NCBI RefSeq assembly: GCF_000738915.1
Contig: NW_026515635.1
Span: 620,001 to 684,000 of the forward strand
Reading direction: 5' to 3'
From: Nematocida ausubeli
Taxonomy: Eukaryota
Length of the DNA stretch: 64,000 nucleotides
Shown: positions 56,585-57,247 of the stretch, piece by piece
Position numbering within the stretch: the first letter of the stretch is position 1
Layout: every line of letters begins with the position of its first letter
The notes under the pieces: model-generated
The model's input: the letters and a program-made list of their open reading frames with translations, nothing else
Databases searched by the model: none
What the model was told of the DNA's origin: nothing
Translations under genes and position numbers: made by a program

Positions 56585-57212
56585 GCTAAAAAGCCATTCG
56601 AGGCTTGCGGACAAGGAATATTAGTTGAGCACACAAAGGGCGGACACAGTACAGCAAGACAGCAGGCAGATCGGGAGCGGCTGTTTATTAATAATAGTGT
56701 GTACCGGCCATGTACGGGCGCCATGTACTGCCTGCACACAGCACATCTTCGCTCGCTGCATACACATGTAGTGGTTAGCTGCTGCATATGCAGGGAGAGC
56801 GGCGTCTTGCGACTGGCCTGAGAACCCAGCGGCCCGCGCATGCTGCTGTTTGCCGGAGCGCTGCAGACAGCACGGCAGGCCATCGCGCGCGCTGCGCAGA
56901 GGAGAGGGCCAGTCGGTGCTGAGGACAGGAGCAGGGAAGTCCAGTGCACGCATAGTTCAGTGCCACTTCGGCTTAGACAACGCAGCGGCTCTAAATATTA
57001 AATGTACAAGCATCAAGGTAAAAAGAACATGCGCGGAATTTCCTAATGACAAAGTTGGCATCCAAGCTACTCCATATGGCCTTATAGGCTACCCCGAAGG
57101 GAATGATAATAGTGGACGACCCACCGGCAGGGTTAGTGCCGGCTTGCTCCTGCCACCTCCTAGCCAGCCCTCTCCTGCTGCACTGCGCCGTGAGACAGAT
57201 GCAGCTCTCCTG
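56585..57212 (-). ncRNA. candidate ~630-nt structured ncRNA (possible telomerase RNA)
   Basis: GC-rich island with nested long-range helices: 57204-57210/56794-56800, 57164-57176/56900-56912, 57145-57154/56924-56933 and 56876-56885/56810-56820; G-U pairs work only on the - strand; UUCG hairpin; CUAACCCU at 57136-57129. Confidence 0.6.
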
Positions 57213-57240
57213 GTGTTCTGAAATGCAGAGTGCGTGGCCC

Positions 57241-57247
57241 TTAAATA
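57241..57247 (-). promoter_or_regulatory. TATA-like box (TATTTAA) upstream of long ncRNA candidate
   Basis: Lies ~30 nt upstream of the first helix of the structured island. Confidence 0.45.

What the first reader, a model, noticed from the sequence alone, without database searches (positions are those of the whole stretch)
56585..57247. Unannotated ~630-nt highly structured RNA gene on the minus strand
Seen in sequence: a GC-rich island within AT-rich intergenic DNA, with no credible ORF. On the - strand it folds into nested long-range helices. These are a 5' closing helix GGAGAGC/GCUCUCC (57210-57204 with 56800-56794), a long rod AGGAGAGGGCUGG/CUGGCCCUCUCCU plus GGCAGGAGCA/UGCUCCUGUC, and an internal helix CGCGCAUGUUC/GAAC-U-AUGCGUG followed by UUUUU. 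There is also a run of mini-hairpins (CCC-UUCG-GGG, GCCU-AUA-AGGC, UUGG-AUG-CCAA), a three-way junction (56810-56885), two 3' stem domains (CUGCAUAUGCAGC/GCUGUGUGCAG; GCAGUACA/UGUACUGU) and a final AAGCC/GGCUU hairpin running into a U-tract. The mismatches are G-U wobbles on the - strand (A-C on +), which fixes the strand and argues for selection on RNA rather than a DNA palindrome. TATTTAA lies ~30 nt upstream. Inference: this is a functional long ncRNA retained in a strongly reduced genome.
Basis: partly seen in the sequence, partly recalled or inferred. Interest (0 to 1): 0.88.

Follow-up and report, generated by a model that had tools for sequence, protein, structure and literature searches.

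The report
Candidate telomerase RNA of a microsporidian
This stretch of a tiny worm parasite's genome is a strongly conserved, folded gene of about 600 letters that appears as its own piece in RNA sequencing data and likely makes no protein; it may be the telomerase RNA that copies chromosome ends, but a ribosome-assembly RNA or a new kind of RNA is nearly as likely.

Summary
The RNA gene is real. The window is Nematocida ausubeli DNA. All 4 RNA or RNA-like runs laid gave one discrete contig over the element, 5' edge up to 57214, just below TATTTAA. It differs between strains ten times less than its flanks (4/600 vs 39/552). A diverged copy keeps two blocks, 56975-57054 and 56589-56623. Only 57212-56792 folds beyond chance (z -4.2); the 3' stems do not. 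Rfam finds nothing; the ORFs look non-coding.

Identity is unproven. Best guess (0.35): telomerase RNA. CUAACCCU (57136-57129) templates TTAGGG (46/2000 shuffles), 8 nt after a core-enclosing helix. But it sits in a closed hairpin loop, there is no P6.1 loop, and no pseudoknot beats chance. Rivals: a Nematocida-specific RNA of a new kind (0.30); a divergent snR30/U17 (0.20; exact m1 motif in the conserved tail, Kri1 annotated across Nematocida, but no m2 or ACA).

Against 'retained in place': the syntenic gap is too small in 5 of 6 other Nematocida species. Reading N. ausubeli chromosome ends would decide.

The parts
57241..57247 (-). TATA-like box TATTTAA followed by GGG (57240-57238); likely promoter
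   Evidence: Sequence. TATA plus a CCC/GGG motif precede RACE-mapped Encephalitozoon ncRNAs (PMC5499648, passages). RNA contig edge at 57214. 30 such sites in the window.
56588..57214 (-). Non-coding RNA gene, about 627 nt; the 3' end may instead be near 56671
   Evidence: RNA contigs 56671-57214, 56699-57203, 56726-57173, 56727-57081. Constraint. No RNA contig covered 56588-56670.
56792..57212 (-). 5' folded domain closed by GGAGAGC/GCUCUCC; four-way junction carrying the rod and two hairpins
   Evidence: z -4.2, 0/100 shuffles; pair probabilities 0.8-1.0
56883..57193 (-). Long rod (57193-57145 paired with 56933-56883) enclosing the template candidate and conserved core; predicted core-enclosing helix
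   Evidence: X20 variants A56893U and C56896U keep or add pairs (-187.2 vs -185.1 kcal/mol); X13/X14 variants remove a bulge but add an A-C mismatch (-182.0).
57129..57136 (-). CUAACCCU, candidate template for TTAGGG (6 templating + 2 alignment nt), 8 nt after helix 57154-57145
   Evidence: Only copy in the window; 46/2000 shuffles give an equal 8-mer
57123..57143 (-). Hairpin GCCGGCA/UGCCGGU closing the template candidate in a 7-nt loop; also a GCCGG direct repeat that would allow a 20-nt template with a 15-nt unit
   Evidence: p 0.97, opening costs 12.6 kcal/mol; hairpin as stable in 4/5000 controls, a 5-nt bracket in 1528/5000
56975..57054 (-). Core block kept in a diverged copy; holds an internal U5 tract (57024-57020) and stem 57047-57039/57021-57012
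   Evidence: Contig in run X6 matches 56975-57025 at >=80% and its next 30 letters match 22/30; A57041U there would add a U-A pair (inference from the alignment)
56812..56881 (-). Long hairpin 56881-56831 plus short hairpin 56830-56812; P6/P6.1-like arrangement without a NUNGN loop
   Evidence: p 1.0 and 0.92; loop scan; z -1.9, 5/200
56659..56700 (-). ANANNA box (56700-56695), AAUAAA (56689-56684) and small hairpin 56684-56659
   Evidence: Only ANANNA between 56800 and 56560; only AAUAAA in the gene; the longest RNA contig stops 13 nt after AAUAAA with 7 unlaid letters
56588..56623 (-). Tail block kept in the diverged copy: AUAUUCCUU (56621-56613, snR30/U17 m1 match), UNCG hairpin, AAGCC/GGCUU hairpin, U5 tract
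   Evidence: Joint 56623-56975 with a 35-letter side; identical to the C. elegans m1 in Table 1 of PMC7601244; 8-nt core in the last 80 nt in 22/20000 shuffles
58594..59706 (+). ESA1/MYST acetyltransferase gene, divergent neighbour (context only)
   Evidence: [quoted passage not shown]
53442..56141 (+). 899-aa lineage-specific gene, convergent neighbour (context only)
   Evidence: Cluster mates named N. ausubeli hypothetical proteins; no gene annotated at this place in 5 of 6 other species

Best explanation
This is a transcribed, strongly constrained and likely non-coding RNA gene of Nematocida ausubeli that is, on my best but minority odds, likely the telomerase RNA. Transcription would start about 30 nt below TATTTAA, probably by Pol II, since contigs run through an internal U5 tract (inferred). 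The rod would act as a core-enclosing helix and boundary tether 8 nt upstream of CUAACCCU. TERT would have to open the 7-bp hairpin, pair the chromosome end to the last 2 nt and add GGTTAG repeats (inferred). In an alternative register the GCCGG repeat brackets a 20-nt template and the telomere unit would be the 15-mer at window + 57129-57143. The conserved U5 core would supply the pseudoknot or TERT-binding core, the two hairpins at 56881-56812 the CR4/5-like element, and the conserved tail the 3'-end signal (all inferred). Shown: presence in RNA-type runs, constraint, 5' fold, the 8-mer. Not shown: the Nematocida telomere repeat, TERT binding, activity, strand.
For: Template: CUAACCCU, 46/2000 shuffles, on the favoured strand only; a 2-nt alignment region occurs in rodent TRs (PMC4993307, passages). 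TTAGGG is reported for Mitosporidium, Hamiltosporidium, Binucleata and G. vavrai (PMC12449221, passages), so it is plausible for an early-branching genus. TERT is annotated in 3 of 8 Nematocida genomes, all N. ferruginous, in a supplement of PMC10393165, so the genus needs such an RNA. Order of parts (enclosing helix, template, conserved U-rich core, long plus short hairpin, conserved tail) follows fungal and vertebrate TRs (PMC3592445, passages); a core-enclosing helix can be the boundary through linker length (the 8-nt human linker length is recalled). No Rfam hit, as expected for a TR of a new lineage (established knowledge). Expression and constraint.
Against: The template candidate lies in a 7-nt loop closed with p 0.97; opening costs 12.6 kcal/mol, and a template-adjacent boundary helix costs 26.6. 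No 4-bp stem with a NUNGN loop in the junction domain; the only NUNGN loop is at 57120, in conflict with stronger helices. The best telomerase-type pseudoknot is matched by 109/150 shuffles. The telomere repeat of Nematocida was not found; derived microsporidia use TTAGG or TTAG, for which there is no full template. TERT is not annotated in 5 of 8 Nematocida genomes of that table, and N. ausubeli is not in it. The diverged copy's template region was not seen. Contig depth is 9-39 times that of ESA1 (a poor measure). Not syntenic in 5 of 6 species. The m1 match in the tail is statistically stronger than the template match.
Confidence: 0.35

Rival explanations
1. A Nematocida-specific structured RNA of no known class, a scaffold or guide whose two conserved blocks are the working parts. 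The rod would hold the conserved U-rich core, and hairpin loops would present CUAACC-type protein-binding words (57136, 56778). Template and m1 matches would be chance.
For: No Rfam match. Neither known family passes its defining tests. The hairpin around CUAACCC looks selected (4/5000). No room at the syntenic site in 5 of 6 species, which fits a young or mobile gene.
Against: Needs two chance matches (p about 0.02 and 0.001). The genus has TERT and Kri1, so partner RNAs should exist and none was found described. The 18 ncRNAs of Encephalitozoon all fell into known classes (PMC5499648).
Confidence: 0.3
2. A divergent snR30/U17-like RNA that would pair through its tail motif m1 with expansion segment 6 of pre-18S rRNA and recruit Utp23 and Kri1 for small-subunit assembly; the long 5' domain would be the variable 5' hairpin.
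For: AUAUUCCUU at 56621-56613 equals the C. elegans m1; 22/20000 shuffles; it opens the 35-nt block kept in the diverged copy. Length is like yeast snR30 (576-606 nt) with long 5' domain, ANANNA box and internal hairpin in the same order. Kri1 is annotated in 8 of 8 Nematocida genomes and 0 of 3 Enteropsectra/Pancytospora genomes; Utp23 and Cbf5 have 11 entries each for 11 genomes.
Against: No AAACCAU m2 (best matches have 2 mismatches and none lies in a pocket), no ACA between 56640 and 56540, no basal stem placing m1 in a pocket. m2 is invariant in 14 of 14 table rows. No RNA contig covered the tail. es6A, B and E are lost in P. locustae and es6 wholly in V. necatrix (PMC7644102, passages); the Nematocida state is unknown.
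Confidence: 0.2
3. An mRNA with paired untranslated arms for a 34-aa membrane peptide (57061-56957) that covers the conserved core, polyadenylated after AAUAAA.
For: ORF with a hydrophobic 19-mer, 52/2000 local shuffles; two changes in the diverged copy would be synonymous; the longest RNA contig ends 13 nt after AAUAAA.
Against: Codon score as low in only 4/3000 pieces of real ORFs; second AUG, behind a 2-codon ORF; the diverged copy is offset by one base at 57025/57026 (22/30 vs 11/30 matches), most simply a frameshift; no Pfam hit or exact entry; does not explain the conserved tail.
Confidence: 0.06
4. An enlarged, diverged RNase MRP, RNase P, SRP or U3 RNA.
For: These exist in Encephalitozoon; 5' end closed by a P1-like helix; high contig depth.
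Against: No hit to these models at E<=10 on 691 nt. By eye (consensus recalled) no P4 partner, helix-8 motif or terminal C/D boxes. Microsporidian versions are shorter than yeast ones.
Confidence: 0.05
5. A transcribed mobile element (SINE- or MITE-like) inserted upstream of ESA1.
For: No room at the syntenic site in 5 of 6 species; a diverged second copy in run X6 could be a paralogue.
Against: Depth like the right flank and no loose ends at the right border in X9; more constrained than ESA1 coding sequence (0.7% vs 1.0%, different runs); no terminal or target-site repeats; one copy in the window.
Confidence: 0.04

Closest known systems
Fungal and vertebrate telomerase RNA (Neurospora crassa and S. 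pombe TER; rodent TR)
   Same: CUAACCCU with 2-nt alignment; template inside a long core-enclosing helix; U tract in a conserved core downstream; long plus short hairpin after the core; size in range; invisible to Rfam
   Different: Template candidate closed in a 7-nt hairpin loop; no NUNGN P6.1; no pseudoknot above chance; telomere repeat of the host genus unknown
snR30/U17 H/ACA snoRNA
   Same: Exact m1 near the 3' end in a conserved block; about 600 nt like yeast snR30; long 5' domain, ANANNA box, internal hairpin; Kri1, Utp23 and Cbf5 annotated in the genus
   Different: No m2, no ACA box, no basal stem and pocket; ends in a hairpin and U tract; an 80-nt conserved block in the 5' domain
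The 18 RACE-validated ncRNAs of Encephalitozoon cuniculi (PMC5499648)
   Same: TATA-like box with GGG motif upstream
   Different: Longer; matches none of those classes in Rfam; that paper has no occurrence of 'telomer'

Membership tests
Telomerase RNA | Template complementary to more than one repeat of the organism's telomere | tested here: inconclusive
   8-nt TTAGGG template present (46/2000); the Nematocida repeat was not found and no genome is held
Telomerase RNA | Template single-stranded and accessible | tested here: not met
   Predicted in a 7-nt loop, closing stem p 0.97, 12.6 kcal/mol to open; prediction only
Telomerase RNA | Template boundary element (adjacent helix or core-enclosing helix) | tested here: inconclusive
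   Core-enclosing helix ends 8 nt upstream (p 0.90); the adjacent-helix alternative costs 26.6 kcal/mol
Telomerase RNA | Pseudoknot with U-rich upstream loop and triple helix | tested here: not met
   3 weak candidates; 109/150 shuffles as good; a conserved U5 tract is present
Telomerase RNA | CR4/5 junction with 4-bp P6.1 and NUNGN loop | tested here: not met
   Short hairpin loop is GUUC; no NUNGN loop in 56886-56808
Telomerase RNA | TERT in the organism; binding and activity | not testable with these tools
   TERT annotated in N. ferruginous only, 3 of 8 Nematocida genomes; N. ausubeli not in the table
snR30/U17 | m1 motif AUAUUCCUN near the 3' end | tested here: met
   56621-56613; 22/20000
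snR30/U17 | m2 motif AAACCAU opposite m1 | tested here: not met
   No match with fewer than 2 mismatches in 57216-56400
snR30/U17 | ACA box after the 3' hairpin, H box in the hinge | tested here: not met
   No ACA in 56640-56540; one ANANNA at 56700; no basal stem
snR30/U17 | Pairing with 18S rRNA ES6 | not testable with these tools
   No Nematocida rRNA sequence was available; none in the window
RNase P/MRP, SRP, U3, spliceosomal snRNA | Match to the family's covariance model | tested here: not met
   3 chance hits at E 7.6-9.9, none to these families
Protein-coding gene | Coding-like codon use, conserved frame, homologues | tested here: not met
   3 weak hits, of which the 2 read are tandem-repeat proteins

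The most novel reading that the evidence does not exclude
The first telomerase RNA of a microsporidian, with a template stored inside a hairpin loop and no canonical P6.1 or pseudoknot. In its boldest form it carries a 20-nt template for a 15-nt telomere unit (window + 57129-57143), a yeast-like expanded repeat not found reported for microsporidia in my searches (about 0.07 of the total).
Probability: 0.35. Interest if true: 0.85.

Novelty: new variant of a known kind. Interest (0 to 1): 0.68.

Why it matters
I found no microsporidian telomerase RNA in print (searches; 'telomer' absent from the one dedicated ncRNA survey), although TERT is kept and telomere repeats shrink across the group from TTAGGG to TTAG. 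A candidate in a parasite that grows in C. elegans makes that gap testable, and would show how far telomerase RNA can be remodelled in a reduced eukaryote. If it is snR30-like, it would explain why Nematocida keeps Kri1 and would be an H/ACA-derived chaperone without m2 or ACA. If neither, it is a 600-nt constrained RNA of a new kind in a lineage where ncRNAs are usually shortened. Absence from print is limited to the open-access library searched.

Tried and rejected
No whole genome is held, so telomere repeat, TERT, copy number and other ncRNA genes of N. ausubeli were not checked directly. Pattern scans for homologues found nothing in metagenome, prokaryote-genome or viral contigs. The ESA1 scan gave 52 loci, best identities 39-63%, none a close relative, none used. 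So no alignment, covariance model or covariation test was possible. Runs X21 and X22 laid nothing (no proof of absence). Lack of RNA cover over 56588-56670 and the flanks is not evidence of absence; X18 and X20 both stop at 56726-56727, a weak hint only. Protein searches with two spurious frames found no relatives from which a homologue could be inferred. The 34-aa peptide could not be searched in the Atlas or the word index. Rejected: RNase P/MRP (no P4 partner, by eye), SRP, U3, U1-like reading of UUACCU (internal; Nematocida has no long introns and such lineages appear to have lost introns, PMC6349667 passages), alternative long helices such as 57189-57173:56659-56643 (+6.8 kcal/mol) and 57037-57026:56844-56833 (+23.5), core-tail pairing (86/1000 shuffles), a Pol III stop at the last U5 (an equal U5 lies inside), and the GCCGG bracket as evidence (1528/5000). 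No telomere motif for Nematocida in passages or supplements of PMC13174016, PMC11592040, PMC12449221, PMC7857110, PMC10767889 or bioRxiv 10.64898/2026.01.30.702766; one picture-only supplement of PMC13174016, the bioRxiv supplements and 9 of 23 files of PMC10393165 were not seen and may bear on this. Three look-ups of earlier findings returned nothing.

Full report
ORGANISM AND CONTEXT. Five cluster mates of the 899-aa ORF at 53442-56141 carry the name Nematocida ausubeli. The element lies in a 2.45-kb gap between that gene and an ESA1/MYST gene (58594-59706), followed by a long ORF at 60752 where other species have RPB1.

OBSERVATION. GC is 0.56 against 0.40. The named helices exist, and the main ones have pair probability 0.9 or more. 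Structure beyond chance is confined to 57212-56792 (z -4.2, 0/100). The inner core 57124-56934 (z -0.2) and the 3' part 56794-56640 (z +0.95) are not above shuffles. Full length gives z -1.25 or -2.45, by limits chosen. The plus strand folds nearly as well, so G-U pairs do not fix the strand. Minus is favoured by 3 vs 0 UNCG loops (163/5000) and by the TATA position. Rfam: nothing at gathering score in the window, nothing over the element on 3 kb, 3 chance hits at E 7.6-9.9 on 691 nt.

EXPRESSION. Of 22 runs listed I laid 8. All 4 RNA or RNA-like runs gave one contig on the element: X14 56671-57214 (depth 461; ESA1 14.6), X13 56699-57203 (301; 7.7), X18 56726-57173 (164; about 10), X20 56727-57081 (21.6; 2.3). 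Caveats: three are one sample and their kind is guessed or unrecorded; only X20 is on record as RNA; contigs give no strand, ends or level, and DNA can be present. Still, the adjacent flanks were uncovered while the neighbouring genes were partly covered, and the 5' edge stops about 30 nt below TATTTAA, the layout described for Encephalitozoon ncRNAs (PMC5499648; passages and section 3.2). The 3' end is open: near 56671 after AAUAAA, or at the U5 tract 56588. An equal U5 lies inside at 57024-57020, so a simple Pol III stop is doubtful.

CONSTRAINT. In DNA run X9, three contigs inside the element differ at 4 of 600 positions and four flank contigs at 39 of 552 (Fisher p 2e-9). These are 7 of the 8 X9 contigs shown, of 115 laid; the one left out, 56477-56573, has 5 changes and 4 gaps; some flank contigs are minor alleles. 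ESA1 coding sequence differs at 11 of 1071 in X13. Strain changes are mixed for structure: the X20 changes keep or add pairs; the X13/X14 changes remove a bulge but add an A-C mismatch. Run X6 holds a diverged contig that matches 56589-56623 and 56975-57025, then continues with 30 shown letters at 22/30 identity. It may be a second species or a paralogue; X9 does not show it. One change in it would add a pair to stem 57047-57039/57021-57012. This is too little for covariation.

NOT CODING. Four frames of 100-149 aa score -0.14 to -0.27, below the lowest of 25 long ORFs (-0.10). No Pfam hit, no relatives, three weak hits of which the two read are tandem-repeat proteins. A 34-aa hydrophobic ORF covers the conserved core but has non-coding codon use (4/3000) and a probable one-base offset in the diverged copy.

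SYNTENY. A supplement of PMC10393165 (rows of file 15) shows the order SPT, L36e, 1000-aa gene, ESA1 in six other species, one genome each examined. The gap before ESA1 is 224, 285, 318, 553 and 591 bp in five; N. minor has 3641 bp with an extra gene and 1809 bp free; the window has 5792 bp. A 630-nt gene with promoter does not fit in five of six. The gene has moved, is much shorter there, or is lineage-restricted.

TELOMERASE READING. CUAACCCU (57136-57129) is a perfect TTAGGG template with 2-nt alignment (46/2000; rodent precedent in PMC4993307, passages). It lies 8 nt after the helix 57154-57145 inside the rod, upstream of the conserved U5 core, with a long and a short hairpin after the rod, the order of fungal TERs (PMC3592445, passages). 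TTAGGG occurs in Mitosporidium and three other genera (PMC12449221, passages); TTAGG and TTAG in derived ones (PMC13174016, PMC11592040, passages). TERT is annotated in 3 of 8 Nematocida genomes. Against: the closing hairpin (p 0.97; 4/5000 controls), no NUNGN P6.1, pseudoknot at chance level (109/150), unknown telomere repeat. A GCCGG direct repeat would make the hairpin a by-product of a 20-nt template, but such brackets are common (1528/5000).

snR30 READING. The conserved tail begins with AUAUUCCUU, identical to the C. elegans m1 in Table 1 of PMC7601244 (section 2.3 and passages); 22/20000 shuffles. Size and the order long 5' domain, ANANNA, internal hairpin fit. Kri1 is annotated in 8 of 8 Nematocida genomes and 0 of 3 others. 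But m2, ACA and the pocket geometry are missing, and ES6 is reduced in the microsporidia solved so far (PMC7644102, PMC6321566, passages).

WEIGHING. Both leads were found after looking for several known motifs, so the p values are not corrected. Each fails defining tests, so I file it under neither family. My odds are a judgement: telomerase RNA 0.35, new kind 0.30, snR30-like 0.20, others 0.15. That it is a real, constrained, non-coding RNA gene I put near 0.9.

NOVELTY. Searches for a microsporidian telomerase RNA and for Nematocida ncRNAs listed no paper describing one; I saw only listings and abstract starts for most hits. PMC4133162 (passages) suggests a telomerase RNA for Lichtheimia only. 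No earlier scan finding bears on it. Verdict: a real, apparently undescribed RNA gene; identity open; interest 0.68.

Noticed in passing
window 52801-56561: The 899-aa gene (NemLGF1-like by recall, not tested) has no annotated counterpart here in 5 of 6 other species. In runs X9 and X6 depth left of about 56500 is far lower than over the element and a contig runs on into other DNA at 56561, so the segment may be a presence/absence polymorphism.
   Followed up: partly
PMC10393165 supplement file 15: Kri1 is annotated in 8 of 8 Nematocida genomes and 0 of 3 Enteropsectra/Pancytospora genomes, which predicts an snR30-like RNA in Nematocida whatever this element is.
   Followed up: partly
window 57137-57132, 56779-56774, 56625-56620 (-): Three CUAAC/CUAAU words, two in predicted hairpin loops; they resemble branch-point or STAR-protein sites (recalled). 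Not tested against chance.
   Followed up: no
window 57500-58014: A low-depth contig (4.15) in run X13 over the TA/CA-rich stretch upstream of ESA1, with 30 changes and an 11-nt insertion; possibly a weak transcript or DNA.
   Followed up: no
window 57428-57438 and 57173-57183: An 11-nt perfect inverted repeat between the upstream flank and the rod's 5' strand.
   Followed up: no
window 57016-57008 with 56974-56968 (-): UUGAUGC could pair with CCGA through tandem G-A pairs, like a box C/D kink-turn, but the diverged copy's match ends at 56975, just before it.
   Followed up: partly
window 57075-57067 (-): The first AUG of the transcript opens a 2-codon ORF just before the 34-aa ORF.
   Followed up: partly
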